From an uncultured Ignavibacteriaceae bacterium (GTDB lineage: Bacteria > Bacteroidota > Ignavibacteria > UBA10030 > BY39), in assembly GCA_964581995.1 (NCBI GenBank), contig CAZOQB010000008.1:9499-73498 (forward strand): DNA of 64,000 bases, written 5' to 3'. Below the pieces are notes generated by a model. It saw only the letters and a list, made by a program, of their open reading frames with translations, was not told where the DNA came from and did no database searches. Both the position numbers and the translations under genes were made by a program. The stretch's first letter is position 1; each line of letters opens with the position of its first letter. This document shows positions 7,449 to 60,281 of this stretch, piece by piece.

Positions 7449-7641
7449 ACTTTTTATAAAAATTATTATTGATACATTATTAAATTAAGCAATTTTTATA
7501 GGATATACAACGTGAAAACCTACCAAAGGTTCACGATGTCCAATCTCGGTAAGACTTTGGGAGATTAAGGTTATAGAAATACTGACGCCCCATCGGAGTG
7601 ATGAGGCGAGTATAAAAAATTTTGTGGTTTGTTTTTTAATC

Positions 7642-46946: not shown

Positions 46947-48281
46947 ATGAAAATTTTCTGCTTAACACTATTATTTTTAACCGGGGTTATCTTTGGTTTA
47001 GCTCAAAATTCCGGGACAGACTCTCTCCCCCTTCCTTCCTCTTTACAATTTTCCGACTCTACCTTGATTGTCGACAATATAGTTATTGTCGGTAACAAGG
47101 TTACCAAATCATTCGTTATCCTACGTGAAATGTCTCTTCAGCCGGGTAGTCGCGTTACCAAAGAAGCAGTTGAATACGACAAAAAAAGAATTTACAGCTT
47201 GCAGTTATTCAACAGCGTGGAAATTCATATTAACTCAACAGAATTCCCAAAAGTTACATTATTGGTTGAAGTACATGAGCGCTGGTATATTTATCCATTT
47301 CCAATCTGGGGAATCAAGGATAGGGATTGGAAAAAATTTTATTACGGACTCGGTTTAATGAACATCAATTTCCGCGGTCGGAACGAAAAAGTCTATGCAG
47401 TCGGAACACTCGGTTATGAACCGTCATTTAGCATCTACTACCGAAATCCCGAAATAGACTATTCCAAAGATGTCTTCCTCGAAACTTCAATGGGTTATGT
47501 AAGGGGCGAGAATAAGAGTAAATACTTCTATGGAAATTATCGTCAGCACTTTATCAGTTTTTCTTTGACTCTCGGAAAAAGGTTCGGAAATTTTCATACG
47601 TTTTCAGGTACGACAGCTTATCAAATCGTAAAAGTATCTGAGTATAAGTATGGCAGAGTTTTAAATCCTTGGGGTAAAGATGCTTATCCTGTTCTTTCAG
47701 CCGGTTATAAATATGATACACGCGATTTAAACGATTACACTTTATCGGGTACGCTTATAAACATGCAAGTATCAAAGTACGGTTTGTTCCAACCGAACAT
47801 TGATTACTGGAGGTACAATTTAGACTATCGGCGGTTTATTCCAATGTTCCCTCGATTGGTTTTTGCTGCGCGTGCCTTTACAAATGTCGCGGGTGGAGGA
47901 AAAATCCCCGTTTACAATCATTTGTATTTGGGATATTCCGAACGCATCCGCGGACATTATTCAGAGCTTTACGAAGGCGAAAACATATTCGGTACTTCAG
48001 GGGAACTGAGATTTATTATTCTTGAACCAAGATATATAAACTTAGATGGAGTTTTTATGTCTGAATTCAGTGTCTGGAAATTTGGAATAGCTGCGGCTCT
48101 GTTCGGCGATGCCGGCACTACCTGGTATAGAAATTATCCATTCGCTTTGAACAATTTCATAAAAGGTTACGGCGCCGGATTACATTTCATACTTCCCTAC
48201 GGTTTTGTACTAAGAACAGAATACGCTTTTAACGAATACCGTGCGGGCGAGTTCATCTTTGACCTCACCGCCGCATTTTAA
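46947..48281 (+). CDS. Omp85/BamA-family outer-membrane protein with a single POTRA domain
   Basis: 444 aa. Signal peptide, POTRA-like segment (IVIVGNKVTKSFVILREMSLQPGSRVTKEAVEYDKKRIYSLQLF), then a beta-barrel with aromatic C-terminus. Confidence 0.65.
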   Translation: MKIFCLTLLFLTGVIFGLAQNSGTDSLPLPSSLQFSDSTLIVDNIVIVGNKVTKSFVILREMSLQPGSRVTKEAVEYDKKRIYSLQLFNSVEIHINSTEFPKVTLLVEVHERWYIYPFPIWGIKDRDWKKFYYGLGLMNINFRGRNEKVYAVGTLGYEPSFSIYYRNPEIDYSKDVFLETSMGYVRGENKSKYFYGNYRQHFISFSLTLGKRFGNFHTFSGTTAYQIVKVSEYKYGRVLNPWGKDAYPVLSAGYKYDTRDLNDYTLSGTLINMQVSKYGLFQPNIDYWRYNLDYRRFIPMFPRLVFAARAFTNVAGGGKIPVYNHLYLGYSERIRGHYSELYEGENIFGTSGELRFIILEPRYINLDGVFMSEFSVWKFGIAAALFGDAGTTWYRNYPFALNNFIKGYGAGLHFILPYGFVLRTEYAFNEYRAGEFIFDLTAAF

Positions 48282-48284
48282 CAA

Positions 48285-49016
48285 TTGACTAACGACAGCT
48301 CAATGCTCGATTACTTCTACACACAACCACAGAATATCAAACCCGACCGTCTCACAATCGATGGCGATGAATTCAGCCACCTCACACACGTTATGCGTAA
48401 GAAAATCGGAGAAAGGATTATGGTCGTAGATGGATTAGGTTCGGCTTACGAGGTTGAACTTACGCTATTCGAAAAGAAAAGAGCTGAAGCAAAAATTTTA
48501 TCATTACATACAAACCACAATGAAAGCGATTTGGATGTAACTATAGCTGTGGGAATATTAAAGAATCCGGCGAAGTTCGATTTCCTTGTAGAAAAAGTTA
48601 CGGAACTGGGAATACGTCAAATCATCCCTCTTAAAACTGAACGCACAATTCCTCAACACGCAAAGACCGACCGCTGGCAAAAACTCGCTCTCGCCGCAAT
48701 GAAACAATGCGGCAGGTCTTATCTGCCAACTGTACAACCACTTACTTCTCTCGGTGAATTACTAGAATCATCTCACGAATTCCAGTTAAAGATTGTGTTT
48801 CATAAAGACATTCAACCGACACAAAGTATAAACGAACTTCTCGACATTCCTAAATTAAAGTCGATAATAATTTTAATCGGACCGGAAGGCGGGTTCTCGG
48901 ATACCGAAATTGAAAAAGCAATCAGCCATGGATTCAAAGCAATCACATTAGGACAAAGACGATTGCGAACTGAAACCGCAGCAATTGCCGCCTCATCACT
49001 TTTTTTAGCAAGATAA
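48285..49016 (+). CDS. rsmE: 16S rRNA (uracil1498-N3)-methyltransferase
   Basis: 243 aa. PUA-like N-terminus, SPOUT C-terminus (IGPEGGFS). Confidence 0.85.
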   Translation: MTNDSSMLDYFYTQPQNIKPDRLTIDGDEFSHLTHVMRKKIGERIMVVDGLGSAYEVELTLFEKKRAEAKILSLHTNHNESDLDVTIAVGILKNPAKFDFLVEKVTELGIRQIIPLKTERTIPQHAKTDRWQKLALAAMKQCGRSYLPTVQPLTSLGELLESSHEFQLKIVFHKDIQPTQSINELLDIPKLKSIIILIGPEGGFSDTEIEKAISHGFKAITLGQRRLRTETAAIAASSLFLAR

Positions 49017-49020
49017 TATT

Positions 49021-49344
49021 ATGATTTACTGGATAGCAACACTTGGAATATTTGTTTGGAACCTCCCGTTTGGTTATTGGCGGACGAACGTTAGTAGATA
49101 CTCACTAAGCTGGATTGCTGCAATCCACATCCCGGTTTTGATGATTATTACATTCAGAATATTTTCAGGTATGGGATTTCAGTTATTCACCTTTCCATTA
49201 TTCGCAGGTGCTTTCTTTTCCGGACAATTAAGCGGTGGTAAGATTTATTCATGGCGGAAAGTACATGCTAAACTTCCTCTCAGCGGCTGTCTTGTTTGGG
49301 ACTTGGTTTCTGATTTCATGAGAAAGCGTTTTCGTAACGATTGA
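49021..49344 (+). CDS. Small 3-TM membrane protein of unknown function
   Basis: 107 aa, three hydrophobic helices. 4 nt after the rsmE stop. Confidence 0.4.
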   Translation: MIYWIATLGIFVWNLPFGYWRTNVSRYSLSWIAAIHIPVLMIITFRIFSGMGFQLFTFPLFAGAFFSGQLSGGKIYSWRKVHAKLPLSGCLVWDLVSDFMRKRFRND

Positions 49345-49416
49345 CTCCGACTTCGCACTGAGTCCCGCTGAAGCGGGATCGGAGGACGTTATTGAACATC
49401 GGATATCGAATATACA

Positions 49417-49456
49417 GTTGCCATTTTAAATAACTTTTTGTATGTTCAATTATCAT
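49417..49456. repeat. Copy 1 of imperfect 40-bp direct repeat (gttgccattttaaataactttttgtatgttcaattatcat)
   Basis: Matches 54237-54275 at 37/39 positions with a 1-nt indel. Lies 27 nt upstream of the TIR-like gene ATG. Confidence 0.85.
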
Positions 49457-49482
49457 ACCAGATAACAGAAAAAGATAATATT

Positions 49483-50919
49483 ATGAATCCCAAATTATTT
49501 ATTTCATATAGTTGGTCAACAGCGGAACATGGTCAATGGGTTATTGATCTCGCAACTTCCTTACGTGAATCGGGAGTTGATGTTATACTGGATAAATGGG
49601 ACCTGAGAGAAGGTAATGATGCCAATGCATTTATGGAAAAGATGGTCACAGACCCCGATATAAAAAAGGTTTTAATAATTTGCGATAAAAAATACTCTGA
49701 CAAAGCAGATCAGAGAGAAGGTGGTGTTGGTACAGAAACACAAATTATATCACCCGAAATATATAAAAACCAAAATCAAGATAAGTTTGTTGCAGTAATT
49801 TCTGAGTTAGATGAGAATGGCAAACCATATTTACCAGTATTTTATAAATCTAGAATATACATTGATCTATCGGATAACGAACGATATGCAATAAATTATG
49901 ATCAATTATTAAGATGGATTTATGACAAACCACTTTATGTTAAACCAGAACTTGGCGCCATGCCTTCGTTTCTTGATGAAAAAGATGGAATCAAATTAGG
50001 CACTACTTCAAATTATAGGCGTGCAATAGATGCATTAAAGAATAATCGGCCAAATGTCAAACCAGCATTACGTGATTATTTTGATAAGTTTGCACAGGGA
50101 TTTGAGCAGTTTAGAATAACAGAACGCAAAGGTGAATTTGATGATCAAGTAATAGAGAGTATTGAAAAATTTATTCCATATAAAAATGAGATTATTGATT
50201 TATTTAGCACGATCGTACAGTATTCAAATACAAAGGAGAATCAACAAATAATACATCGATTTTTCGAGAACTTGATTCCATATCTGGATAGGCCTGAAGG
50301 AGTTAATTCATTCTTTGAAACCGACTTTGATAATTTTAAATTTATGATTCATGAATTGTTTTTGTATTTAATTGCATCGTTTCTTAAGTACGAAGCATTT
50401 GATGCAGTTTCATATTTTTTACGAACCCCATACTTGATAAAAAATGCAGGCGAATACCCGAGAAATACCAACAATAACTATACTATATTTAGACCTTATC
50501 TTAAATCTTTGGAATATCGAAATCAAAGATTAAATCTACGGCAATATTCTCTTCATGCAAATCTGTTGCATAAATATTCAAAAGGCACAGGATTTCATTC
50601 TGAGGAGATTATGCAAGCGGATTTCATTTTATATATCAGAGATACCCTCGACTCAATTCGAAAGAAAACAGACTGGCGTTGGTATCCCGTTACATTGCAT
50701 TACATGGGTTTTAGTCATCCACCTTTTGAAATATTCGTTCGAGCAGAAGATGCGGAATATTTTAATATAATTAAGCCAATACTTAATATTAAAATGAAAG
50801 AAGACCTACAAATAATCTGGGGAGGTACTCAGCAAAGAAATATGCAGAAGCTCCGTATAGGAGATAATTCAATAAATCCTGAGGTGCTTCTTGGATACGA
50901 TAAATTGGCAACTCAATAG
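49483..50919 (+). CDS. TIR/SEFIR-like domain protein fused to an uncharacterised ~320-aa C-terminal domain
   Basis: ORF 49438-50919 begins with TTG inside the repeat; probable true start is ATG 49483 (MNPKLFISYSW). N-terminal ~150 aa fits the TIR_2/SEFIR pattern (LFISYSWSTAEHGQWVIDLATSLRESGVDVILDKWDLREGND...KVLIICDKKYSDKAD...FVAVISELD...PVFYKSRIYIDL). The remainder has no motif I recognise. AT-rich by eye. Confidence 0.65.
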   Translation: MNPKLFISYSWSTAEHGQWVIDLATSLRESGVDVILDKWDLREGNDANAFMEKMVTDPDIKKVLIICDKKYSDKADQREGGVGTETQIISPEIYKNQNQDKFVAVISELDENGKPYLPVFYKSRIYIDLSDNERYAINYDQLLRWIYDKPLYVKPELGAMPSFLDEKDGIKLGTTSNYRRAIDALKNNRPNVKPALRDYFDKFAQGFEQFRITERKGEFDDQVIESIEKFIPYKNEIIDLFSTIVQYSNTKENQQIIHRFFENLIPYLDRPEGVNSFFETDFDNFKFMIHELFLYLIASFLKYEAFDAVSYFLRTPYLIKNAGEYPRNTNNNYTIFRPYLKSLEYRNQRLNLRQYSLHANLLHKYSKGTGFHSEEIMQADFILYIRDTLDSIRKKTDWRWYPVTLHYMGFSHPPFEIFVRAEDAEYFNIIKPILNIKMKEDLQIIWGGTQQRNMQKLRIGDNSINPEVLLGYDKLATQ

Positions 50920-50954
50920 CGATCAAAGTATCCTCCAACCACTTTAAAAAGGAA

Positions 50955-50984
50955 CCCCGATACAAATCATCGGGTTTTGTTTTA
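50955..50984 (+). terminator. Rho-independent terminator after the TIR-like gene
   Basis: Stem cccgat/atcggg (50957-62, 50970-75), 7-nt loop, then ttttgtttt. Confidence 0.6.
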
Positions 50985-51090
50985 TAATACCTAACCGCTC
51001 TTACTTTCCTACTTCCAGCATTTGGAATGTTCCCGGCACAATTTTCGGTCGCGGGCGCGGGTTCTCACTCGTTGCTGGAGGTCTAGTAAG

Positions 51091-51597
51091 CTAATTTTTC
51101 TCTTCTTTATCTTCGCCCTTTTCAGAATCTTCAGTTTCTATTTTCATAACTTTGTTTGTCTTTGCATTCACGTCCACTTCAACAATTTTTCCGTCTTTAG
51201 TTTTAATCTCAAATGAGTAGATCGTTTTCCCTTTTTCTTTCTTCAATTCTTTTTGAACAATTTCACCCGGTACTTTTTTCAGTGCCGCCTTCTCGGCTTT
51301 ATCGGAGACTTGCTCTTCCTTTTCTTTTACTGCGGATTCTTCTTCTGCCTTGATAACCTTACCTGTCTTTGCATCAACCCAAACCTCCTTTGTCGTTTCG
51401 CCGACTTTTAAATCGAACGACCAAATCAATTTGCCTTCTTCTTTTTCTAATTCTGAGCTTTGAATAACTGCATCCTTAAATTGTTCGAGAGCAACTTTAG
51501 TGGCTTGTTCTTTTGTTATTTTCGCATCGTTTTTCTTCTGAGCAAAGCTTGTTGAAACTACAATCATACACACGAGTAACGCAATAAGAGATTTCAT
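51091..51597 (-). CDS. Secreted tandem-PepSY domain protein
   Basis: 168 aa. Signal peptide. Two PepSY-like repeats (KLIWSFDLKVGETTKEVWVDAKTGKVIK, KTIYSFEIKTKDGKIVEVDVNAKTNKVMK) separated by Lys/Glu-rich linkers. Confidence 0.7.
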   Translation of the reverse strand: MKSLIALLVCMIVVSTSFAQKKNDAKITKEQATKVALEQFKDAVIQSSELEKEEGKLIWSFDLKVGETTKEVWVDAKTGKVIKAEEESAVKEKEEQVSDKAEKAALKKVPGEIVQKELKKEKGKTIYSFEIKTKDGKIVEVDVNAKTNKVMKIETEDSEKGEDKEEKN

Positions 51598-51819
51598 TTT
51601 TTACCTTTCAATTTGTTAAATACACCATTTTAAGATAGGAAGAAATTTAAGTATTTCCAACAGAAATCGCCTTTTTAAAGCTATTTTCCCCATTGAATCC
51701 TTTTCCAAATGGCTGCATCCCACACTTAGAGAAACTCTATAACAAGAATAAACGTTATTTGAAAAGATAGAAAAAACTAACTAAAGGATCCCTTATAACA
51801 TTTAAAAACGGAGTAATCC

Positions 51820-54105
51820 ATGCACATCAAAATTAGGCTATCTCGCTTAATTATCATCTTAGGCGTTTTATTTTTATATACATTTTCGTCGTTTTCTCAA
51901 GAGTACATTTTACTCGGTTGGAATGATCTCGGTATGCATTGTTCCAACAAAGACTTTTCTAAGGTTGTAGTCCTGCCGCCTTACAACAACATCACAGCGC
52001 AGCTAATTCTCAAACAACCAAATCAATTACCACAAGTTGTTACCTCCGGTTATACTATCGAGTATTCAATTCCTAATAACACATACTCTGTCGGTAAGAC
52101 AAATTTCTGGACTTACGCACAACAATTGTTTGGCTTGTCTTCACCATTACTACCTAACATCGGTTTAACAGGCAAGGGTCTTACCGGAGTTCTTGATAGC
52201 AGCGGAACTTATTTTGCTGCACATGGAATTCCCATAACCCCATTTACAGATACCGATTTAGTTAATGAATCGCCGTATCAGTTGATTCATCTTGTTGCCA
52301 GAAGTAAAGCTAACGGCAGCATTCTTGCCACAACGGACGTTGTTATTCCTGTAAGTAACGAAGTAGGTTGCGTGCAATCGGGGTGTCATAGTTCTGAGAC
52401 GTCTATATTAAATGCACATGAGCCGGTTTCCGGCTTTAACAGATCGGGACCCGTGTTATGCGCATCGTGTCATGCTTCAAATGCGCTTGGTACTACGGGT
52501 ATTCCGGAAGCGCAATCTTTTTCTTTTCGAATTCATGATAAACACAAAGATGTTGCAGGACCTTCAAACAGTATTTCTACATGTTATAAATGTCATCCCG
52601 GACCGAATACACAATGTCTGCGCGATGTAATGGGAAAGAATCCAACCAACCCAATGGTGTGCCAGGATTGTCACGGAACCATGAGCAATGTCGCATCAAC
52701 AATTACAGCAGGCAGACGACCCTGGCTTGACGAACCCAAATGTGGAACATGCCACGGACCCACGCATGCGGAAGAGACTGGGAAGTTGTACAGACAATCA
52801 AAAGGTCATGGTGGTTTGTTTTGTTCCGCGTGCCATGGAAGTCCACATGCTATACAGCCGACAGTTCAACCGAACGATAATCTTCAGAATACAAGACTTC
52901 AAGGATTTGCCGGTACTTTACAAAAATGTTCTGTTTGTCATACCACACGCATGGATGGTTCGGGTCCTCACGGTATCACGGATACAACAACTGTTGTCAT
53001 CGCTACGCCTTCACTCTCCTTTCCGCCTGACGGTTCAACTGGAATTACTACCCGTCCGCAACTGCAGTGGAATTCCGTGCCGAATGCACAGACATACGTT
53101 TTGCAAGTATCGTTAGATTCGCTTTTTGCAACAACTGTTGTCGATGATTCTTCACTTTCCCAAACTTCACTACAGCTTAATCCGTTAATTTCGATTACAA
53201 AATATTATTGGAGAGTTCGCGCAAAAAATTCAAACATCATAAGTGCCTGGTCGCCAAGATGGGAATTTATTACTACAGAAGGCACAACACTCACAGTAAA
53301 TTTAGATATGAAATGGAATTTGGTATCGCTTCCTCTTGAAGTTATTAATCCAAGTATAAATACTCTATTCCCTACGGCAAGTACAAAAGCTTTTCAATAC
53401 TTCGGGGGCAGTGGATATCTACAGAATGATTCGCTGTCGTTTGGAAATGGTTATTGGATAAAATTTGGCGCCTCACAATCCGTAAATGTTACAGGTACAC
53501 CGGTTAATTCAGATTCTATAGCTGTTACAACTGGATGGAACCTCGTCGGTTCAATATCAACCGCAGTCCCAACCGCATCCATTATCAGCGATCCACCCGG
53601 ATTGGTTACCAGCATTTTTTATGGATACCAAGGAAGTTATGTACAATCCGACACTATTTTCCCTGGAAAAGCATACTGGGTGAAAGTAAATCAACCGGGT
53701 CGCTTTATATTATCGTCGGGCGTCGCGAAAAATTCGTTCAAGACAATTCAGATAACACCTTCATCCGAGATGCCTCCACCTCCGCCGGGTGGTGAGCCGA
53801 CAGTAATTAAAGAAATTCCAAAAGACTATTTGTTGGCACAATCATATCCTAATCCGTTCAATCCTTCTACGAGGATTAGTTATACGCTTCCGGTAGATAG
53901 TAAAGTAACGTTGAAAATATTCGACATGCTCGGTCGCGATATTGTTACGCTGGTTCAAGCGGAGCAAAGTCAAGGTTACCGAACCGTTGAATGGAATGCG
54001 GTGGGATATACAAGCGGAATCTATTTTTATAAGATCGAAGCTGTGAGTGTTGACGATCCGAATAAGGTGTTCACGGATATTAAAAAAATGGTTGTGCTGA
54101 AATAA
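51820..54105 (+). CDS. Multiheme c-type cytochrome (6 CxxCH plus 1 CX4CH) with FN3-like domain and T9SS C-terminal sorting domain
   Basis: 761 aa. Signal peptide. Heme motifs CASCH, CYKCH, CQDCH, CGTCH, CSACH, CSVCH plus CVQSGCH. FN3-like segment (PQLQWNSVPNAQTYVLQVS...YYWRVRAKN). C-terminal ~85 aa match the Por/T9SS CTD (SYPNPFNPSTRISYTLP..VTLKIFDMLGRDIVTLV...SGIYFYKIEA...KKMVVLK). Confidence 0.8.
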   Translation: MHIKIRLSRLIIILGVLFLYTFSSFSQEYILLGWNDLGMHCSNKDFSKVVVLPPYNNITAQLILKQPNQLPQVVTSGYTIEYSIPNNTYSVGKTNFWTYAQQLFGLSSPLLPNIGLTGKGLTGVLDSSGTYFAAHGIPITPFTDTDLVNESPYQLIHLVARSKANGSILATTDVVIPVSNEVGCVQSGCHSSETSILNAHEPVSGFNRSGPVLCASCHASNALGTTGIPEAQSFSFRIHDKHKDVAGPSNSISTCYKCHPGPNTQCLRDVMGKNPTNPMVCQDCHGTMSNVASTITAGRRPWLDEPKCGTCHGPTHAEETGKLYRQSKGHGGLFCSACHGSPHAIQPTVQPNDNLQNTRLQGFAGTLQKCSVCHTTRMDGSGPHGITDTTTVVIATPSLSFPPDGSTGITTRPQLQWNSVPNAQTYVLQVSLDSLFATTVVDDSSLSQTSLQLNPLISITKYYWRVRAKNSNIISAWSPRWEFITTEGTTLTVNLDMKWNLVSLPLEVINPSINTLFPTASTKAFQYFGGSGYLQNDSLSFGNGYWIKFGASQSVNVTGTPVNSDSIAVTTGWNLVGSISTAVPTASIISDPPGLVTSIFYGYQGSYVQSDTIFPGKAYWVKVNQPGRFILSSGVAKNSFKTIQITPSSEMPPPPPGGEPTVIKEIPKDYLLAQSYPNPFNPSTRISYTLPVDSKVTLKIFDMLGRDIVTLVQAEQSQGYRTVEWNAVGYTSGIYFYKIEAVSVDDPNKVFTDIKKMVVLK

Positions 54106-54133
54106 ACCTTAAAATATCCAAGTTGCATTTTGA

Positions 54134-54168
54134 TTGCCACGGGCTTTTGTTCGTGGCAATTTTTATTT
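54134..54168 (+). terminator. Rho-independent terminator after the cytochrome gene
   Basis: Stem ttgccacg/cgtggcaa (54134-41, 54152-59), 10-nt loop, then tttttattt. Confidence 0.7.
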
Positions 54169-54236
54169 ATGCCGGCTAACCTCCCGAATGCTTAATTTGC
54201 TTTAACATGATTACCTTCGGGATGTTCACACAAAAG

Positions 54237-54275
54237 TTGCCATTTTCAGTAACTTTTTGTATGTTCAATTATCAT
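54237..54275. repeat. Copy 2 of imperfect ~40-bp direct repeat (gttgccattttcagtaactttttgtatgttcaattatcat)
   Basis: 37/39 match to 49417-49456 (copy 1 is 40 nt; 1-nt indel plus two substitutions). Lies in the 3' intergenic region between convergent genes, so it is not a promoter for any adjacent + strand gene. Confidence 0.85.
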
Positions 54276-54349
54276 TTCTAAGCGGTGCGGAAATTAGAGT
54301 GGGTGCTATAAAAGCTTTACAATGCTAGAAAAAATGTGAAGAGAACGCT

Positions 54350-54961
54350 TTAAATCGCAACTATCCCTAACCACAACTGATAAAATCCAAAACATGCTAA
54401 TGCAATTGCCGATAATAATATCATAATCCGGTCTATTCGTGGACCCAGACTTTTTGCTGCACTGAAAAGTATAATTATTACCATAGAAGTTATTATCATC
54501 GTACCGTAAAAAGCAGCTACTAATGCAATTCCATTAGCAGGAGCTTCTCTCCATCCCTTAAGCATTAGCGGTCCTAATACCAAACTCCAGCCGAGATACG
54601 GACCGGGGCTTAGGAAATTCACGAAAACTGCTTTTAAGACAGTCGTTTGGGTGGATTGAATCTCAACCGTTTTGTTCACATCAAAATTCTTCCACGTCAT
54701 AAAAGTCCCGAAAGCTAAATAGAGGACGAACGCTCCACCGGAAAAATGTAACACTTGTTCAAGCCAATCAGGCATACTGCTTAACACTAATATAACCAAC
54801 GCCGCGATTGGTAAATCAGTTATGAGTGGCGCAAAAGTAGCGGGTAGTGTACGCTTCCAACCTATTCTCAGGGCCTGAGATATAAAATAAGTTTGTAAGG
54901 GTCCCGGCTGCACAGCGGCTGCGAAGCCATAAGTCAACCCAAAAATTATATAAAAAAGCAT
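54350..54961 (-). CDS. LysE/RhtB family amino-acid exporter
   Basis: 203 aa, 6 TM. N-terminal GPLQTYFISQAL-like LysE motif. Confidence 0.8.
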   Translation of the reverse strand: MLFYIIFGLTYGFAAAVQPGPLQTYFISQALRIGWKRTLPATFAPLITDLPIAALVILVLSSMPDWLEQVLHFSGGAFVLYLAFGTFMTWKNFDVNKTVEIQSTQTTVLKAVFVNFLSPGPYLGWSLVLGPLMLKGWREAPANGIALVAAFYGTMIITSMVIIILFSAAKSLGPRIDRIMILLSAIALACFGFYQLWLGIVAI

Positions 54962-54979
54962 AGAGTAATCAATAAAGAT

Positions 54980-55477
54980 TTATGATACTGGATCGAGTTC
55001 TTTTAAAACTTCTTCCGCTTTAAGCACTTCATTAAACGGCACAAGCACTTTTAGCTCTACAATAGGATGGTTGCCGTAGACACGGTAAATAAGAGGCGGG
55101 GAAATATCAGCCCCGGGATTGAAATGCCGTGAATACAAAAAGGGGTGTAAGCTCGCTTGTTCAAGGCAACTCGTGATATACTGTGCCTGAAGATTGTCTG
55201 TGCAGCCGAAAACTCTTGACATTCCTTCATACATTTCGTACTGTGAATGCATGTCGCAGAAAAATATTTTATTCACCAACATACCGCACTCTTTGCAGAA
55301 CGGTTTTAAACAGATTACGCAAAAGCCGTCCGCTTCAGAAGAGTTGTGTATCGAACATGCAACTCCATCTTTAAATATTGCACCGCAATTTTTACAAAAT
55401 GTATCTTCGTCTTTAACTTCAACTCCACACTCACCGCAAGTTAGTTTTTCCTCATTCATAAACATTCCTTTACTCAA
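54980..55477 (-). CDS. Zinc-ribbon protein (several CxxC pairs) with C-terminal DUF2007-like domain
   Basis: 165 aa. CGECG..CKNCG..C..CVICLKPFCKECG..C. C-terminal ~70 aa resemble a DUF2007 GlnB-like domain (my reading). Confidence 0.45.
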   Translation of the reverse strand: MSKGMFMNEEKLTCGECGVEVKDEDTFCKNCGAIFKDGVACSIHNSSEADGFCVICLKPFCKECGMLVNKIFFCDMHSQYEMYEGMSRVFGCTDNLQAQYITSCLEQASLHPFLYSRHFNPGADISPPLIYRVYGNHPIVELKVLVPFNEVLKAEEVLKELDPVS

Positions 55478-55502
55478 TTACTCAAATACTCACTACTTAA
55501 CT

Positions 55503-56354
55503 TCATCCATGTTTGATAAACGTCCCGTTGTTGTACTCCTCGAAGGCTATTTCTAATTCTTTTCTCGTGTTCATCACGATTGGTCCGTGCCAGGCGACTG
55601 TTTCTTTTATCGGCATTCCTGAAATCAACAGAAAACTTACCGGCTCATCTTCGGTCGTTACGCGCAACTGTTCTCCGTCGCTAAAGAGAACGAGGTTGTT
55701 GTTCAAGAGAAATTTCTTTTCGTCGGAAAAATATCCTTTGCCGCCCGTTACGTAAGCAAACACGGTATGACCAGACTTCGTAGGATGAACAAATTGTGCT
55801 TTTGCAGGCACTGTTACATCAAGATACTCCGGGTCGATGACGATATCTTTAACGGGTCCTTTAGTTCCATTCACTTCACCGGCTATAATTTTTATTTTCA
55901 CTCCGTTTGCGGTTTCAATTTCAGGTATCTCATCTTTTTTCACGTCGCGGTAACGAGGATTCATCATCTTATGAGACTTTGGTAGGTTCGCCCACAACTG
56001 GAATCCCCAATTATAACCGGCTTCATCTCCTTTCGGCATTTCTTGATGTACGATTCCACTTCCGGCAGTCATCCACTGGACATCTCCCGAAGAAATCACG
56101 CCTTTGTTTCCCATGCTGTCGCCGTGTTCAACGTTACCACGAAGCATGTAAGTTATTGTTTCGATACCGCGATGCGGATGCCAAGGAAAACCCTTTATAT
56201 AATACTTCGGATCGTTTGAACGAAAGTCGTCTAAAAGAAGAAACGGGTCGAACTCCGGAACTTCATTAAAACCGAACGCGCGTTTTAGATGAACGCCGGC
56301 TCCTTCGAGTGTTGGCTTACTCGTGTACAATTTTTTAATGGACCTATTTTTCAT
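55503..56354 (-). CDS. Pirin family protein (bicupin)
   Basis: 283 aa. HPHRGIETITYMLRG and second cupin. Confidence 0.85.
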   Translation of the reverse strand: MKNRSIKKLYTSKPTLEGAGVHLKRAFGFNEVPEFDPFLLLDDFRSNDPKYYIKGFPWHPHRGIETITYMLRGNVEHGDSMGNKGVISSGDVQWMTAGSGIVHQEMPKGDEAGYNWGFQLWANLPKSHKMMNPRYRDVKKDEIPEIETANGVKIKIIAGEVNGTKGPVKDIVIDPEYLDVTVPAKAQFVHPTKSGHTVFAYVTGGKGYFSDEKKFLLNNNLVLFSDGEQLRVTTEDEPVSFLLISGMPIKETVAWHGPIVMNTRKELEIAFEEYNNGTFIKHG

Positions 56355-56485
56355 AGTAACTCTTCTTTATGTTTGAGTATTTGAATTTTGGATTTGTTTC
56401 GTATTTCGATATTCGTGCTTAGGATTTTTTTCAATAAATGATGACTATGCGTTTTATCAGTTTACAACTTACCTACTCGCCTTCA

Positions 56486-58156
56486 TCACCGTATCAACTT
56501 CTTATACTTAATCCTATGCGGCTTGTCGGCTTCAATACCGAGAATTTTTCTGCGGTGTTCTTCAAACTCTGAATAATTTCCGTCGAACCATATTGCTTCA
56601 CTGTCGCCTTCAAAAGCGAGAATATGCGTTGCAACTCTATCGAGGAACCAGCGGTCGTGGGAAATTATTACCGCACAACCGGCAAAATTTTCAAGCGCTT
56701 CTTCGAGAGCGCGCAGCGTGTTCACGTCGAGGTCATTTGTCGGCTCATCGAGTAACAGAACATTAGCGCCTTGACTTAAAACTTTAGCGAGATGAACACG
56801 ATTTCGTTCACCGCCAGAGAGCACACCAACCGGTTTTTGTTGGTCCGTTCCGCTGAAATTGAACCGGGCAACGTAGGCGCGTGAGTTCATTTCACGGTTG
56901 CCTAACTTTATCAAATCTTCGCCGCCGGATATTTCCTGCCAAATTGTTTTGTCCGGGTCAAGTGGACGGTTCTGGTCGACGTAGGCAAGCTTTACCGTTT
57001 CACCTACCACAATCTTACCCGCTTCAGGTTTCTCCTGACCTGTTATCATTCGGAAAAGTGTGGTTTTACCTGCACCATTCGGACCGATTATACCAATAAT
57101 ACCACCGGCAGGTAAGTTAAATTCGAGGTTTTCATAGAGGATAATATCGCCATAGGATTTTGCAACTTTTTCTGCTCTGATTACAACATCACCTAAGCGT
57201 GGACCGGGCGGTATGTAAATTTCAATTTCTTCACTTCGCTTTTCGTTTTCCTCTGCAAACATTTTTTCATACGCGGCGATACGTGCTTTACTTTTTGCGT
57301 GGCGTCCCTTCGGATTTAATCGTATCCATTCCAACTCACGCTGTAAAACTTTTTGCCGTTTAGATTCCTGTTTCTCCTCTACAGCAAGACGCGCTCGTTT
57401 TTGTTCAAGCCACGATGAATAATTTCCCTGGAATGGAATTCCCTCGCCGCGGTCAAGTTCTAAAATCCATCCGGCAACATTATCTAAAAAATATCGGTCG
57501 TGTGTTACCGCAATTACAGTTCCTTTGTACTGAGAGAGATGGTGTTCAAGCCATGCAACCGATTCAGCGTCGAGATGATTTGTGGGTTCATCGAGAAGCA
57601 ACACATCCGGTTCCTGCAAGAGAAGACGACACAATGCAACACGACGACGTTCACCGCCGGAGATAACCGACACTGATGTTTCGGGTGGCGGACAACGGAG
57701 TGCGTCCATCGCTTGCTCAAGTTTACTGTCGATATCCCAGGCACCGAGATGATCTATTTTTTCCTGTAGCTTGGCTTGCTTTTCAAGCAAAACATCGAAA
57801 TCCGCATCTGGTTCTGAAAACTTTGCGCTTATCGCTTCATATTCTTTCAGAAGATTGACTGATTCTGCCGCACCTTCCTCGGCGATTTGTCGGACAGTTT
57901 TGGTTTGGTCAAGTTCAGGTTCCTGCTGAAGGTAACCAAAAGTAATTCCTTTTTGAGCCGTGACCTCTCCGAGGTAATCTTTATCTACACCGGCGATGAT
58001 TCGGAGTAGCGTGCTTTTACCGGATCCGTTCAAACCAAGCACTCCGATTTTAGCACCGTAATAGAATGAAAGGTAAATATCTTTTAAAACCTGCTTGTTG
58101 GGTTTGTGAACTTTCCCAACACCGATCATTGAAAATATTATTTTATTATCTGCCAT
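56486..58156 (-). CDS. ettA: Energy-dependent translational throttle protein EttA (ABC-F ATPase)
   Basis: 556 aa. Two ABC cassettes (GLNGSGKST, GPNGAGKTT; LSGGERRRV, LSGGERNRV) with an arm insertion. Length typical of EttA. Confidence 0.9.
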   Translation of the reverse strand: MADNKIIFSMIGVGKVHKPNKQVLKDIYLSFYYGAKIGVLGLNGSGKSTLLRIIAGVDKDYLGEVTAQKGITFGYLQQEPELDQTKTVRQIAEEGAAESVNLLKEYEAISAKFSEPDADFDVLLEKQAKLQEKIDHLGAWDIDSKLEQAMDALRCPPPETSVSVISGGERRRVALCRLLLQEPDVLLLDEPTNHLDAESVAWLEHHLSQYKGTVIAVTHDRYFLDNVAGWILELDRGEGIPFQGNYSSWLEQKRARLAVEEKQESKRQKVLQRELEWIRLNPKGRHAKSKARIAAYEKMFAEENEKRSEEIEIYIPPGPRLGDVVIRAEKVAKSYGDIILYENLEFNLPAGGIIGIIGPNGAGKTTLFRMITGQEKPEAGKIVVGETVKLAYVDQNRPLDPDKTIWQEISGGEDLIKLGNREMNSRAYVARFNFSGTDQQKPVGVLSGGERNRVHLAKVLSQGANVLLLDEPTNDLDVNTLRALEEALENFAGCAVIISHDRWFLDRVATHILAFEGDSEAIWFDGNYSEFEEHRRKILGIEADKPHRIKYKKLIR

Positions 58157-58165
58157 AGTGTGTTA

Positions 58166-58224
58166 CGAGTTATGGGTTATGGGTTTTGAGTCTGGAGTCG
58201 TGAGTTTTGAGCCATGAGTTTGAG
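58166..58224. repeat. Degenerate short tandem repeats (GAGTTTTGAG-like; CTCAAAAC on the coding strand) in the ettA 5' leader
   Basis: cgagttatgggttatgggttttgagtctggagtcgtgagttttgagccatgagtttgag, immediately upstream of the ettA start (58156, minus strand). Confidence 0.6.
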
Positions 58225-58430
58225 ATCATCTGTATAAAGTTTAGGTGAATATACAAAAAAGCGTGGTAAGAAAGAAAATTATCTATTCAAATAAATTAGT
58301 TCAAAATAAATCACACCAATTATGCAATGATTTCCCCTGAACACCACTAGCATTTTTCGTGAACATTCGTGTATTTAGCGGCTCGTTTTAGTTGCCACGA
58401 ATTAGACTAATTGACACTAACAAAATATTT

Positions 58431-59366
58431 TTAATGGTCACTCCCTACATACTTTTTCTCGCCTGCCTCGACCCGGAAGTTTAGATAATTCTGCTCTGGC
58501 GGTATTGGACAAGTTGCAAAAACAGTAAAAGCACATGGCGGGTTGTATGCTTTGTTAAAATCGATTACAACATTATTATTTGAGTCGGGCATTTCTGTGT
58601 ATAGATAGCGCCCCATTCCGTATGTTTCCTTACCTGCTGTTTTATCGTGGAAGATAATGAACAATTCTTTATCTTCCTTTAACGCATCGAGTCTATAAAG
58701 TTTTCCATCCATCTCGAATACAATTGCTCCCGTACAAGTATCGTTGCTTACCTGATTGAGAACATTCACGATTGGAATTATTTTTACGGGATTGTACGGT
58801 TCAAACTTCGCTTCGAACCTCCACCTCAAATCAACAGAAAAATAATCCAATCCCTTAAAATTCAAACGTGAAGAGGTTTGTTTATCTCTAACTCTCACGC
58901 CGAGCTGCTCGCCGCGTTTAATAACAAAAAAAGTAAGCGAACCTAATTCCATGACAGTTGGTTTCGCTTTACCGCTTTCATCGGATGTAATTTTGATTTC
59001 GGCTACAATTGAGTCCTTTACCTTAATTCCAGCAATTTTTGGTGATTTTAGGAGCAGTTCCCCATTTTTAAGAAAGATGGAACCGGCATATTTGGGACTC
59101 CGTTCAGGCGGAAAAATAATTTCGTTAGAAGAATCCACTCCCATCCTGTTCTCACCGTCCTTAAGCCAGAACAAACCGCAGAGTGTAAGCCATCCGTTAT
59201 CTTTCTGTAAATTTTCAGAGCGCTTCTGCTGCCACTGTTCGATTTCTTTTTTGTAAACAACCATATCAACATCATACTTTTTGCCACAGCCCGTGATAAC
59301 AATTGGTAGAAACACAAAAAGAATGAGTATAACTTTAAAAATCTTTGTATTCATAATAAATAACAT
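58431..59366 (-). CDS. DUF1684 domain lipoprotein
   Basis: 311 aa. Lipobox-like VITGCG, WLTLCGLFWL and PPCAF..ATCPIPP motifs that I recall as typical of DUF1684. Confidence 0.7.
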   Translation of the reverse strand: MLFIMNTKIFKVILILFVFLPIVITGCGKKYDVDMVVYKKEIEQWQQKRSENLQKDNGWLTLCGLFWLKDGENRMGVDSSNEIIFPPERSPKYAGSIFLKNGELLLKSPKIAGIKVKDSIVAEIKITSDESGKAKPTVMELGSLTFFVIKRGEQLGVRVRDKQTSSRLNFKGLDYFSVDLRWRFEAKFEPYNPVKIIPIVNVLNQVSNDTCTGAIVFEMDGKLYRLDALKEDKELFIIFHDKTAGKETYGMGRYLYTEMPDSNNNVVIDFNKAYNPPCAFTVFATCPIPPEQNYLNFRVEAGEKKYVGSDH

Positions 59367-59368
59367 CC

Positions 59369-60022
59369 TTATAATTTTATTTGAGGATCGTTTTCGTACG
59401 CAGAACCAATATGGCAGAGATGGTTTAATGTTTCTCCAAACAGGTCGTATAGAGATTTTAACCTTGTGATGTCGGTAATGACCCCGGTTACCTGGAAATA
59501 TAGTTCGTCAACACCTTCAGGAAAATTTTTACCAAACCAGCCTTCATCGTCCTTCACTTCTAAGGATATTGACGGCTGTTCGTGTATTAGTGCACGAATT
59601 TTATCATTCATAAAAAGTGAACGGACTTTTGACTCATCGGAAGCTTTGATAATAAAGTCGCGGTCGAATTCTGGATAGCCGACTTCTATATCTTTCATGC
59701 CGAAATATTTTCCTATATCACTAAATACACTTTTGCGATAAATCTTAAAACGAAATCCATCCGCGTTCACATACGGTGCACGGATGCGCGTGTACGTTAC
59801 ATGCGATTTACCGGTCGATACCGTGTAAGTATCAAGCGTAATCGTCCACTCCTGAATTCTTGCAATCACTTTGTCGCCTTTCCAGACTCCACCATCAATG
59901 AAATCGGCGCCGATTTCTTTACACAGTTGTTGCCAAACTTCTTCTTTGTTAGCCCCGAATATTTTTCTTAGAAACTCTTTCATTTTCTTCTCACTTCCTT
60001 TTTTTTCTTTTTTCATCGACAA
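59369..60022 (-). CDS. Hypothetical protein (Lys-rich N-terminus; alternative start MKEFL at 59983)
   Basis: 217 aa ORF. No recognised domain. 2-nt gap to the DUF1684 gene suggests co-transcription. Confidence 0.45.
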   Translation of the reverse strand: MSMKKEKKGSEKKMKEFLRKIFGANKEEVWQQLCKEIGADFIDGGVWKGDKVIARIQEWTITLDTYTVSTGKSHVTYTRIRAPYVNADGFRFKIYRKSVFSDIGKYFGMKDIEVGYPEFDRDFIIKASDESKVRSLFMNDKIRALIHEQPSISLEVKDDEGWFGKNFPEGVDELYFQVTGVITDITRLKSLYDLFGETLNHLCHIGSAYENDPQIKL

Positions 60023-60281
60023 GACATTTTGCGTTTTTATTATTGTACTTCTTCAATATTCTACAATACACCGCGCTCTCACGTCTGCACGCACCAGAAA
60101 GATCATTATCCGCAAAGTCCGCATACTTGCATGAATAATCGCAATACAGGGGTAATTGGTTCTGAATTTTTCGTGCCATAAGCATCCGAATATTACAAAA
60201 ATATTTTCAACAAGACAAATCCTATTTTTGAAATTCAACTTTATTATATTTATCTTTGAATAAACGAACAGGATTCCATTC

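What the first reader, a model, noticed from the sequence alone, without database searches (positions are those of the whole stretch)
49417..54275. ~4.8-kb segment bracketed by an imperfect 40-bp direct repeat: possible insertion/recombination footprint carrying TIR, PepSY and T9SS cytochrome genes
gttgccattttaaataactttttgtatgttcaattatcat (49417-49456) recurs as gttgccattttcagtaactttttgtatgttcaattatcat (54237-54275). Copy 1 overlaps the 5' UTR of the TIR-like gene. Copy 2 lies in a convergent 3' intergenic region where it cannot serve a + strand gene, so it looks orphaned (like a duplicated att site or scar). Both copies are preceded by a tcccg...cggga stem (49363-49378; 54183-54222). The bracketed cargo is a TIR-like gene, a tandem-PepSY gene and a T9SS-targeted multiheme cytochrome, none of them core housekeeping.
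Basis: seen in the sequence. Interest (0 to 1): 0.65.

Follow-up and report, generated by a model that had tools for sequence, protein, structure and literature searches.

The report
Duplicated promoter in a gene-swapping hotspot
The 41-base repeat is real and is most likely one ordinary promoter present twice, one copy driving a foreign anti-phage gene and the other stranded when its own genes were deleted, in a chromosomal spot where related strains swap genes by recombination; it is not the footprint of a self-contained mobile island.

Summary
The repeat is confirmed. It is 41 nt, at 49416-49456 and 54235-54275, matches 39/41, and none is expected by chance.

The host is an uncultured Ignavibacteriales bacterium. 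In six related lineages the interval between rsmE-hyp107 and lysE/pirin has different gene content. The element, E, is single-copy in every relative that has it, and always at this locus.

E reads as a sigma-70-type core promoter, TTGCCA-N17-TATGTT. The hexamers are essentially invariant and the variation lies in the spacer.

In relative L032 the order hyp107, spacer f1, E, 50-nt leader f2 is contiguous and runs into the ATG of a three-gene operon. So copy 2 (E+f2, abutting the 3' end of lysE) is an orphaned promoter and leader. Copy 1 keeps the ancestral left context and sits 26 nt upstream of a bSEFIR defence gene. That gene has GC3 0.25 against 0.39 for neighbouring genes.

The "cargo" is not one unit. 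The cytochrome, its terminators and its spacers are old residents of this locus in relatives, without flanking repeats. Only bSEFIR looks foreign. The window has no integrase, transposase or tRNA gene.

Best reading: promoter reuse produced by recombination in an integrase-free variable hotspot.

The parts
49021..49344 (+). hyp107, a small conserved ORF after rsmE that forms the left conserved border of the variable locus
   Evidence: No Pfam or PADLOC hit. It follows rsmE in all close relatives. From about 49313 onward two haplotypes differ: A is hyp107-f1-E, B is hyp104-PecLyase-esterase-E.
49345..49415 (+). f1, the spacer between hyp107 and E copy 1; a strong hairpin at 49345-49384 may terminate rsmE-hyp107
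   Evidence: Fold of 49345-49482 gives -31.9 kcal/mol, z -2.2. The 3' part (49389-49415) is homologous to the sequence left of E in L017 and L032/L033, so this is the ancestral left context.
49416..49456 (+). E copy 1, a putative sigma-70-type core promoter (-35 TTGCCA 49418-49423, 17-nt spacer, -10 TATGTT 49441-49446), now upstream of bSEFIR
   Evidence: It ends 26 nt before the bSEFIR ATG. Homology to bSEFIR-gene flanks in other genomes (L027) is detectable up to 14 nt upstream of the ATG and by eye reaches 49457.
49457..50919 (+). Short leader (49457-49482, no Shine-Dalgarno) plus the bSEFIR (SEFIR/TIR) single-gene anti-phage defence gene (49483-50919); horizontally acquired
   Evidence: PADLOC bSEFIR E=1e-119; Pfam SEFIR and TIR_2. 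GC 0.330 and GC3 0.253, against 0.409+/-0.022 and 0.387+/-0.032 for 25 other ORFs. Homologues at about 55% identity occur in archaea, Vibrio, Planctomycetes and Patescibacteria. Absent from this locus in all relatives.
50934..51080 (.). T1, a conserved non-coding segment with a bidirectional terminator hairpin at 50956-50974 (terminates bSEFIR on + and PepSY on -)
   Evidence: 40/41 identical to L023 4950-4990 and 87.5% over 144 nt to L032 9664-9807. In both relatives it lies downstream of E-f2 without bSEFIR.
51091..51597 (-). Tandem-PepSY protein gene; missing in L023 and L032, although its terminator T1 persists there
   Evidence: Pfam PepSY x2.
51683..54105 (+). Cytochrome upstream region (51683-51819) and the MtrC-like multihaem cytochrome gene with T9SS tail (51820-54105); a long-term resident of this locus
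   Evidence: Pfam. 83-86% nt identity, including the upstream region, to L023 5178-7681 and L032 9854-12394, at the same locus. GC 0.425 and GC3 0.353 are native-like.
54132..54234 (+). T2 intrinsic terminator (54132-54161) and spacer x (54162-54234); x is homologous to L032 up to 54213, and 54214-54234 is unique to the window and abuts E copy 2
   Evidence: The left flank of copy 2 shows no significant similarity to f1 and none to the esterase 3' end by eye (alignment).
54235..54275 (+). E copy 2, the same promoter (-35 54237-54242, -10 54260-54265), orphaned and pointing into the 3' end of lysE
   Evidence: Its adjacency to f2 is conserved in L011-14, L023 and L032/33.
54276..54349 (+). f2, a relic 5' leader of a deleted operon; the ATG at 54322 is followed by only 5 codons and lies at about the position of the first-gene ATG in L032 and L023
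   Evidence: L032 7362-7411 is the same leader and runs into the ATG at 7412 of hyp256, Fib_succ_major and hyp209. Homology reaches 54304 in L011, 54319 in L032 and 54337 in L023; L009 keeps 54310-54349 joined to lysE. No stable fold and no Rfam family.
54350..54961 (-). lysE-family exporter gene, the right conserved border (followed by the Zn-ribbon protein, pirin and ABC-F genes)
   Evidence: Pfam. Conserved in L009 and L032, decayed in L011, absent in L017.

Best explanation
E is a sigma-70-type core promoter, spanning about -37 to +4, that belongs to a strain-variable locus between rsmE-hyp107 and lysE/Zn-ribbon/pirin in an Ignavibacteriales population. Ancestrally the order was hyp107, f1, E, f2 (leader), then a plus-strand operon, followed further right by T1, PepSY, the cytochrome, T2 and x, and finally lysE. 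In the window's lineage the genes after f2 were deleted. That left E+f2 butted against the 3' end of lysE; this is copy 2, an orphan promoter that at most makes an antisense transcript over lysE. A second segment then joined immediately left of the resident E: f1, E, bSEFIR, T1, PepSY, cytochrome, T2 and x. It probably came from a more distant lineage in which a compact foreign bSEFIR gene had replaced f2 and its operon directly behind the promoter. The join most likely used homologous recombination in the rsmE/hyp107 flank on one side and an illegitimate join on the other. The 41-nt direct repeat is therefore a donor promoter plus the resident promoter, not a duplicated attachment site. Shown: the repeat, its single-copy locus-specific distribution, the contiguous f1-E-f2-operon arrangement in L032, the residency of the cytochrome block, the foreign composition of bSEFIR, the mosaic flanks, and the absence of recombinase genes. 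Inferred: promoter activity, the order of events, and the recombination mechanism.
For: 1. Promoter anatomy. E reads TTGCCA-17 nt-TATGTT in both copies. Other likely promoters in the window have the same architecture, for example TTGACT-N17-TATATT before the yceD-L32 and 14330 operons. Across six lineages the -35 hexamer is invariant, the -10 hexamer is identical in 5 of 6, and all other substitutions fall in the spacer or at position -37.
2. Position. E ends 26 nt before the bSEFIR ATG in the window. It ends 50 nt before the ATG of the first gene of a three-gene operon in L032/L033.
3. Orphan status of copy 2. The E-f2 adjacency is conserved in L011-14, L023 and L032/33. In the window f2 ends after an ATG plus 5 codons, against the lysE stop codon. 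L009 shares the f2(3')-lysE junction.
4. Ancestral outer flanks. f1-E is shared with L017 and L032/33, and E-f2-lysE with L011 and L009.
5. The cargo is not a unit. T1, the cytochrome, T2 and x sit at the same locus in L023 and L032, to the right of E-f2 and without a second E. Another cluster member has yet other neighbours. Only bSEFIR deviates in composition, and it occupies exactly the slot that f2 holds in L023, between E and T1.
6. Recombination signature. The window and L009 are 96% identical over 11 kb on the left: 97-100% at 45.1-46.9 kb, then a mosaic, then a switch to L017-like sequence at about 49.1 kb. On the right they are only 86-90% identical from 54.3 to 61.3 kb, returning to 95% beyond that.
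7. Differing affinities of the two copies. Copy 2 plus f2 is 91% identical to L011, which matches the genome-wide level. f1 plus copy 1 is 82-85% identical to L017/L033, and the cytochrome block is 83-86% identical to L023/L032, whose left flanks are only 73-78% identical to the window.
8. No mobility genes. No integrase or transposase was found among all ORFs of 150 aa or more, and there is no tRNA gene.
Against: There are no transcript data, so promoter activity and the transcription start site are inferred from consensus and position only. The consensus scan itself is no better than shuffles (18 found against 18.5 expected). Three different sequences abut E at the same nucleotide: f1, the esterase stop codon and x. 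This is more precise than random illegitimate joins would predict and hints at a preferred breakpoint. The donor haplotype (E-bSEFIR... followed by x) was not found in any database, so the order of events is a reconstruction. The higher identity of the cytochrome block to L023/L032 could reflect gene-specific constraint rather than transfer, because the right-flank genes are also 83-87% identical to L032.
Confidence: 0.6

Rival explanations
1. E is the core of an attachment site. The 4.8-kb block would then be a non-autonomous integrated element, CIME-like or satellite-like, inserted by Campbell-type site-specific recombination and mobilised by a tyrosine recombinase encoded elsewhere in the genome.
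For: A direct repeat with both outer flanks ancestral and a contiguous 'empty' f1-E-f2 in L032 is exactly the attL/attR/attB pattern. Three different left contexts join E at the same nucleotide, and two right-hand breakpoints lie within 6 nt of each other. The two mismatches are clustered, as would be expected for one side of a crossover.
Against: No integrase, transposase or tRNA gene is present in 64 kb. Most of the block (T1, cytochrome, T2, x) is resident at the locus in L023 and L032 with no second E, and lies to the right of E-f2 rather than between two E copies. The cargo has heterogeneous composition. E shows no convincing dyad symmetry: the arms TTGCCAT and ATGTTCAAT are 17 nt apart (by eye). 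E has a full promoter anatomy and a promoter position.
Confidence: 0.12
2. The repeat arose within the genome. A tandem duplication of an ancestral E-f2-...-cytochrome-x segment created the junction x|E. Deletions then trimmed the second copy down to E-f2, and bSEFIR replaced f2 and its operon in the first copy. This would be promoter capture in the manner of the E. coli Cit+ duplication.
For: L032 shows the required ancestor order: f1-E-f2-genes-T1-cytochrome-T2-x. Tandem duplications that bring promoters to new genes are documented (PMC3575422, citing Blount et al.; PMC11111574 by title and abstract). The novel junction x|E is what a head-to-tail duplication produces.
Against: It needs at least three events. 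L009, the closest relative, shares the f2-lysE junction but has no cytochrome block. The two E copies carry different spacer alleles, AAA as in L023 and CAG close to L011's CAA, and their flanks have different phylogenetic affinities. That favours two sources over a recent in-situ duplication.
Confidence: 0.15
3. E is a dif-like XerC/D site, and the block is an IMEX-type insertion that exploits the host Xer recombinases.
For: The insertion lacks an integrase and is flanked by direct repeats. Within E, GTATGTTCAAT matches the general XerD-arm consensus TTATGTHAANT at 9 of 11 positions, and the variable triplet falls in what would be the less conserved XerC arm (comparison by eye with the consensus recalled from the literature). 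The locus lies between convergently oriented gene blocks.
Against: GC skew tracks gene orientation. After removing that effect the replication component keeps the same sign on both sides of the locus, so there is no terminus signal. The would-be central region and XerC arm are poor matches. The match is weak enough to occur by chance in AT-rich DNA. The promoter position relative to two different ORFs is unexplained by this model.
Confidence: 0.03
4. E is a conserved cis element other than a promoter, such as a regulator operator or part of a small or antisense RNA, and was duplicated for regulatory reasons.
For: E is more conserved than the neutral flanks across lineages with 73-92% background identity. 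The 10 nt after the -10 hexamer are also invariant in 5 of 5 lineages that retain them.
Against: There is no Rfam hit. Folds of E+f2 on either strand are no better than shuffles, with z from -0.02 to +1.6. No conserved small ORF is present. Variation is confined to the spacer, as expected for a promoter.
Confidence: 0.08

Closest known systems
Promoter reuse / putative mobile promoters (Matus-Garcia, Nijveen and van Passel 2012; commentary PMC3575422)
   Same: Near-identical promoter sequence lies upstream of non-homologous downstream sequences within one genome. It is not associated with an IS and gives a horizontally acquired gene a resident promoter.
   Different: The repeat is 41 nt and lies at -67 to -27 from the ATG, below their 50-nt threshold in the -150 to -50 zone. 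One of the two copies no longer has a gene. Both copies lie 4.8 kb apart in the same variable locus rather than being dispersed.
Minimal mobile elements and core (defence) hotspots: variable gene content between conserved flanking genes, exchanged by homologous recombination (Saunders and Snyder 2002 as quoted in PMC3787668; cDHS in P. aeruginosa, PMC10250203)
   Same: Conserved flanks (rsmE-hyp107 and lysE/pirin/ABC-F). Different whole-gene content among the closest relatives. No mobility genes. Mosaic, more divergent flanks. A defence gene is among the cargo.
   Different: This is a much smaller locus (0.4-7 kb), and only one recognised defence gene was seen (bSEFIR, in the window only). The cargo is mostly metabolic or envelope genes: pectate-lyase-like, esterase, cytochrome and MFS. 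Short conserved non-coding islands (E-f2, T1, T2-x) sit at the module borders.
Genomic islands or CIMEs flanked by att direct repeats
   Same: A direct repeat of tens of bases brackets a strain-specific segment, and an empty site with one copy exists in a relative.
   Different: There is no integrase and no tRNA or gene 3' end target. The cargo is not inherited or absent as a unit. The repeated sequence is a promoter.
bSEFIR single-gene anti-phage defence (Millman et al., bioRxiv 10.1101/2022.05.11.491447)
   Same: The 478-aa protein has an N-terminal SEFIR/TIR domain and matches the PADLOC bSEFIR model at E=1e-119.
   Different: Function was not tested here. The gene stands alone, not inside a recognisable defence island.

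Membership tests
Sigma-70-type bacterial promoter | -35 and -10 hexamers close to TTGACA/TATAAT, separated by 17+/-1 nt | tested here: met
   TTGCCA-17-TATGTT in both copies, 9 of 12 matches. The count of such matches in the region is not above shuffles, so this feature alone is weak.
Sigma-70-type bacterial promoter | Located a short distance upstream of the first gene of a transcription unit | tested here: met
   E ends 26 nt before the bSEFIR ATG. In L032/L033 it ends 50 nt before the first ATG of a three-gene operon.
Sigma-70-type bacterial promoter | Hexamers conserved and spacer free to vary among orthologous copies | tested here: met
   Six lineages: the -35 is invariant, the -10 is identical in 5 of 6, and substitutions are otherwise confined to the spacer and position -37. 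Only six sequences were available, so support is modest.
Sigma-70-type bacterial promoter | Mapped transcription start or reporter activity | not testable with these tools
   No transcriptome or experimental data are available.
Integrated genomic island / CIME with att repeats | Direct repeats at both ends, with one copy at the empty site in relatives | tested here: met
   (L032 has f1-E-f2 contiguous).
Integrated genomic island / CIME with att repeats | Integrase or recombinase in or next to the element (for a CIME, elsewhere in the genome) | tested here: not met
   None among all ORFs of 150 aa or more in the 64-kb window or in the genes called in relatives' loci.
Integrated genomic island / CIME with att repeats | The bracketed segment is present or absent as one unit | tested here: not met
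   T1, cytochrome, T2 and x are present in L023 and L032 without bSEFIR, without PepSY and without a second E.
Integron cassette / attC | IntI nearby; cassettes in one orientation, each ending in an imperfect palindrome with R'' RYYYAAC and R' GTTRRRY | tested here: not met
   No IntI. PepSY is on the opposite strand. E starts GTTGCCA, which does not fit GTTRRRY, and has no complementary R'' at attC-like spacing (by eye). T1 carries an RYYYAAC-like box in L023 and L032, but no matching R' was found. No attC covariance model was available, so the attC part is only a visual test.
dif site / IMEX | 28-bp XerC arm, 6-bp centre and XerD arm, located at the GC-skew switch | tested here: not met
   The XerD-like arm matches 9 of 11 by eye, but there is no skew switch at the locus.
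Dispersed REP / MITE-type repeat | Many copies scattered in intergenic regions | tested here: not met
   Two copies in 64 kb even at 12 or fewer mismatches. One copy per relative, always at this locus. Zero hits for the exact core in GTDB genomes, JGI contigs and IMG/VR. The rest of this genome was not searchable.
Putative mobile promoter (Matus-Garcia et al. criteria) | At least 80% identity over at least 50 nt within -150 to -50 of non-homologous genes | tested here: not met
   The repeat is 41 nt at -67 to -27 (criteria from PMC3575422). It works like one but fails the formal length criterion.
Minimal mobile element / core variable hotspot | Different gene content between the same conserved flanking genes in the closest relatives, no mobility genes, recombinant flanks | tested here: met

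The most novel reading that the evidence does not exclude
E might be more than a promoter. It could be a combined promoter and attachment site of an integrase-in-trans gene-capture platform in Ignavibacteriales, analogous to an integron's Pc and attI. Compact genes such as bSEFIR would then be inserted directly behind the promoter. bSEFIR homologues elsewhere (L027, L031) are flanked by attC-like palindromes GTGTTGCCTAACC...GTTAGGCAAC. Whole blocks would be swapped at the G|TTGCC edge, which would explain why three unrelated sequences join E at the same nucleotide.
Probability: 0.06. Interest if true: 0.7.

Novelty: new member of a known kind. Interest (0 to 1): 0.3.

Why it matters
The locus is a clean natural example of two things. 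First, a horizontally acquired, promoter-less defence gene is made expressible by landing directly behind a resident promoter. Second, deletion and recombination in an integrase-free hotspot leave an orphan promoter that mimics an att-site scar. For genome scans the practical lesson is that short direct repeats bracketing accessory genes need comparison with close relatives before an island is called. For Ignavibacteriales it gives one conserved candidate promoter and shows species-level gene flux at the rsmE-pirin locus. Nothing here challenges current concepts.

Tried and rejected
1. Dispersed repeat. Exact-core scans of GTDB species genomes (23-mer), JGI metagenome contigs and IMG/VR (26 specified bases) all returned nothing. 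The JGI collection evidently lacks the samples that hold L011, so this negative result is weak.
2. More relatives through genome contigs and metagenome contigs with RsmE. Only distant relatives (57-61% aa) or contigs too short to use came back.
3. dif/Xer. Rejected on GC skew.
4. Small RNA or riboswitch in E+f2. No Rfam hit and folds no better than shuffles.
5. Extension of the repeat to the left at low identity (x derived from f1). Local alignment was not significant, p about 0.1-0.6.
6. Integron cassette or attC reading of E and T1. Only partial box matches by eye, no IntI, and the L027 'array' was not clearly an attC array.
7. bSEFIR carried together with E in other genomes. E is absent next to bSEFIR homologues in L027-L031, so E is not the gene's own promoter.
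8. Transfer of the cytochrome block inferred from identity alone. Weakened because right-flank core genes are equally similar to L032.
9. Two look-ups returned gene lists but no DNA.

Full report
OBSERVATION

The repeat exists as described.
- Identity extends one base to the left, giving a 41-nt unit (E) at 49416-49456 and 54235-54275.
- The copies match 39/41, and both mismatches fall in one triplet (AAA versus CAG).
- No match appeared in 100 dinucleotide-preserving shuffles.
- No third copy occurs in the window even when 12 mismatches are allowed.
- Homology ends abruptly on both sides.

The gene calls are confirmed.

| Gene | Coordinates | Strand |
|---|---|---|
| rsmE | 48285-49016 | + |
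| hyp107, small conserved ORF | 49021-49344 | + |
| SEFIR/TIR protein (PADLOC bSEFIR, E=1e-119) | 49483-50919 | + |
| Tandem-PepSY protein | 51091-51597 | - |
| MtrC-like multihaem cytochrome with T9SS tail | 51820-54105 | + |
| lysE | 54350-54961 | - |
| Zn-ribbon protein | 54980-55477 | - |
| pirin | 55503-56354 | - |
| ABC-F | 56486-58156 | - |

Intrinsic terminators follow bSEFIR (50956-50974, bidirectional) and the cytochrome gene (54132-54161). The same sequence occurs in independent assemblies, so it is not an assembly artefact.

HOST AND RELATIVES

RsmE relatives identify an uncultured Ignavibacteriales bacterium. Contexts of RsmE and cytochrome homologues gave six comparison lineages. 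Left-flank nucleotide identity to the window is given in brackets.

| Lineage (identity) | Gene order at the locus |
|---|---|
| L009/10 (96%) | rsmE, hyp104, pectate-lyase-like x2, hyp151, 23S-IVP protein, lysE, pirin |
| L011-14 (91.5%) | rsmE, hyp104, pectate-lyase-like, esterase, decayed lysE, pirin |
| L017 (92%, then 86% near the locus) | rsmE, hyp107, truncated Zn-ribbon gene, pirin; no cargo |
| L032/33 (about 76-78%) | rsmE, hyp107, hyp256, Fib_succ_major, hyp209, cytochrome, MFS, LiaF-TM, lysE, Zn-ribbon, pirin |
| L023-25 (73%) | rsmE, hyp, cupin, pectate-lyase-like, esterase, cytochrome, LiaF-TM |

The interval between rsmE-hyp107 and lysE/pirin is therefore a hotspot whose gene content differs even between genomes that are 96% identical. 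No integrase or transposase occurs in any of these loci. None occurs among all ORFs of 150 aa or more in the window, which are ATP synthase, Lpt, SprA, fab genes and similar. The window has no tRNA gene.

WHERE E OCCURS

- E is absent from L009/10.
- It is present once in each of L011-14, L017, L023 and L032/33.
- It was not found anywhere else: not in about 300 kb of fetched Ignavibacteriales DNA, and not in exact-core scans of GTDB species genomes, JGI contigs or IMG/VR.
- It is therefore locus-specific, not a dispersed REP element.

Its neighbours differ between lineages.

| Side | Neighbour | Found in |
|---|---|---|
| Left | f1, a spacer after hyp107 | window copy 1, L017, L032/33 |
| Left | stop codon of the esterase gene | L011-14, L023 |
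| Left | x, the spacer after the cytochrome terminator | window copy 2 |
| Right | f2, a conserved stretch of about 50-64 nt | window copy 2, L011-14, L023, L032/33 |
| Right | bSEFIR | window copy 1 |
| Right | middle of the Zn-ribbon gene (a deletion) | L017 |

WHAT E IS

- E contains TTGCCA-17 nt-TATGTT.
- Other likely promoters in the window have the same sigma-70-type architecture, for example TTGACT-N17-TATATT before the yceD-L32 operon. Bacteroidetes-type TAnnTTTG boxes are not found upstream of most genes.
- Across the six lineages the -35 hexamer is invariant and the -10 hexamer is identical in five. All other substitutions lie in the spacer or at position -37.
- In L032/L033 the order hyp107, f1, E, f2 is contiguous. 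f2 runs straight into the ATG (L032 7412) of the first gene of a plus-strand three-gene operon.
- In the window E ends 26 nt before the bSEFIR ATG.

I therefore read E as a core promoter spanning about -37 to +4, and f2 as the 5' leader of the operon it originally served. This rests on consensus, conservation pattern and position. There are no expression data, and the consensus scan alone is no better than chance. No Rfam family matches the region. E+f2 does not fold better than shuffled sequence on either strand.

COPY 2

In the window f2 (54276-54349) keeps the leader. An ATG at 54322 sits about where the first-gene ATG lies in L032 and L023. Five codons later the sequence ends at the lysE stop codon. 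L009 retains the same f2(3')-lysE junction (win 54310-54969), and L011 has E-f2 followed by a decayed lysE. Copy 2 is thus an orphan promoter and leader left by deletion of everything between f2 and lysE.

COPY 1 AND THE "CARGO"

Copy 1 has the ancestral left context: f1 is shared with L017 and L032/33.

The bracketed block is heterogeneous.
- The T1 spacer with the bidirectional terminator is 40/41 identical to L023 and 87.5% over 144 nt to L032.
- The cytochrome gene with its upstream region, the T2 terminator and most of x are 83-86% identical to L023 and L032.
- In both relatives these parts sit at this same locus, to the right of E-f2 and with no second E.
- A further cluster member has yet other neighbours.
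- PepSY is missing in L023 and L032, although its terminator persists.
- Only bSEFIR is compositionally foreign: GC 0.33 and GC3 0.25, against 0.41+/-0.02 and 0.39+/-0.03.
- bSEFIR homologues at about 55% identity are scattered over archaea and many bacterial phyla.
- bSEFIR is inserted as little more than an ORF (49457-50933), exactly where f2 sits in L023, between E and T1.
- E does not accompany bSEFIR homologues elsewhere, so it is a resident promoter that the incoming gene uses.

HOW THE DUPLICATION AROSE (INFERENCE)

The flanks are recombinant.
- The window and L009 are 97-100% identical at 45.1-46.9 kb.
- They become mosaic from 47 kb.
- The window switches to L017-like sequence at about 49.1 kb.
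- On the right side identity to L009 is only 86-90% from 54.3 to 61.3 kb, and returns to 95% beyond that.

The two copies have different affinities.
- Copy 2 plus f2 is 91% identical to L011, the genome-wide level for that pair. Its spacer allele CAG is one step from L011's CAA.
- Copy 1 plus f1 is 82-85% identical to L017 and L033, and carries the AAA allele of L023.
- The cytochrome block is closer to L023 and L032 than the left flank is.

The simplest history has two steps.
1. The resident chromosome had (f1 or esterase)-E-f2-lysE, after the operon and cytochrome region had been deleted.
2. It then received hyp107(3')-f1-E-bSEFIR-T1-PepSY-cytochrome-T2-x from a more distant lineage. The join was homologous in the rsmE/hyp107 flank and illegitimate just left of the resident E.

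This is the outcome expected from homology-facilitated illegitimate recombination, which I cite from my own knowledge of the Acinetobacter and pneumococcus literature. The repeat is then the donor promoter plus the resident promoter.

Two alternatives remain open: a tandem duplication followed by deletions, and Campbell-type integration of a circle at E. One observation does not fit comfortably. Three unrelated sequences meet E at the same nucleotide. That keeps a site-specific mechanism alive at low probability.

REJECTED READINGS

- dif/Xer. E has a 9/11 XerD-arm-like stretch, but the GC skew follows gene orientation and shows no terminus.
- Integron attC. There is no IntI, the boxes do not fit, and PepSY is on the opposite strand.
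- REP or MITE. The copy number is far too low.
- Small RNA. No structure and no Rfam hit.

COMPARISON WITH KNOWN THINGS

The locus behaves like a minimal mobile element or core variable hotspot, in which homologous recombination in conserved flanks swaps gene content without mobility genes (PMC3787668; PMC10250203). The repeat is a case of promoter reuse or capture (PMC3575422), although it is shorter than the formal criterion used in that survey. The bSEFIR gene belongs to a described single-gene anti-phage family (bioRxiv 10.1101/2022.05.11.491447).

VERDICT

This is an ordinary, though neatly documented, product of recombination at a strain-variable locus. It is a new member of known kinds, of modest interest (0.3).

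Noticed in passing
L031:150-232 and 1669-1730; L027:5900-6000 and 7438-7510: bSEFIR homologues (69-74% aa) in other metagenomic contigs are flanked by attC-like imperfect palindromes (GTGTTGCCTAACC ... GTTAGGCAAC). In L027 several neighbouring small same-strand ORFs are followed by GCCTAAC-type boxes. This suggests the defence gene travels as an integron-type cassette in some genomes.
   Followed up: partly
window 47000-61300 compared with L009: A zone of elevated divergence about 14 kb long (86-94% identity, mosaic SNP patterns) is centred on the variable locus, between two genomes that are 97-100% identical at 45.1-46.9 kb and 95% at 61.6-62.3 kb. This is a signature of repeated homologous imports around the hotspot.
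   Followed up: partly
window 50934-51080; L032:9664-9807; L023:4950-4990: The T1 non-coding segment with the PepSY/bSEFIR bidirectional terminator is kept at 87-98% identity in relatives that have lost the PepSY gene. In L023 and L032 it begins with an RYYYAAC-like box (GTCTAAC / ACCTAAC).
   Followed up: partly
L017:6760-7089 (minus strand): In the cargo-less relative a deletion joins E (cut after ...GTTCAAT) to the middle of the Zn-ribbon gene. The called 109-aa ORF therefore reads through the complement of E, making a chimeric C-terminus.
   Followed up: partly
L032:7412-9612: The operon that E-f2 serves in L032/L033 encodes a 256-aa coiled-coil protein with an HPD (J-domain-like) motif, a Fib_succ_major-domain protein and a 209-aa protein of unknown function. 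No PADLOC hit. Function unknown.
   Followed up: no
window 49313 (hyp107 C-terminus): The small conserved ORF after rsmE has two alternative C-termini (104 versus 107 aa). These correspond to two old haplotypes of the locus that do not follow the flank phylogeny.
   Followed up: partly
window 675-1516 (minus-strand coding): Five to six repeats with a period of about 150 nt (63-96% identity) lie at the window's left end. They are presumably a repeated protein domain in a gene that runs off the window.
   Followed up: no
window 30520-37509: A 2329-aa SprA (T9SS translocon) gene lies 14 kb from the T9SS-sorted cytochrome, consistent with a functional type IX secretion system in this organism.
   Followed up: no
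L011:13142-13690: lysE is decaying in the L011-14 lineage: a 161-nt deletion spans its 3' end and part of f2, and only a 62-aa ORF is called. The Zn-ribbon gene is absent from L009 and L011, so the 'conserved' right border is itself eroding.
   Followed up: partly
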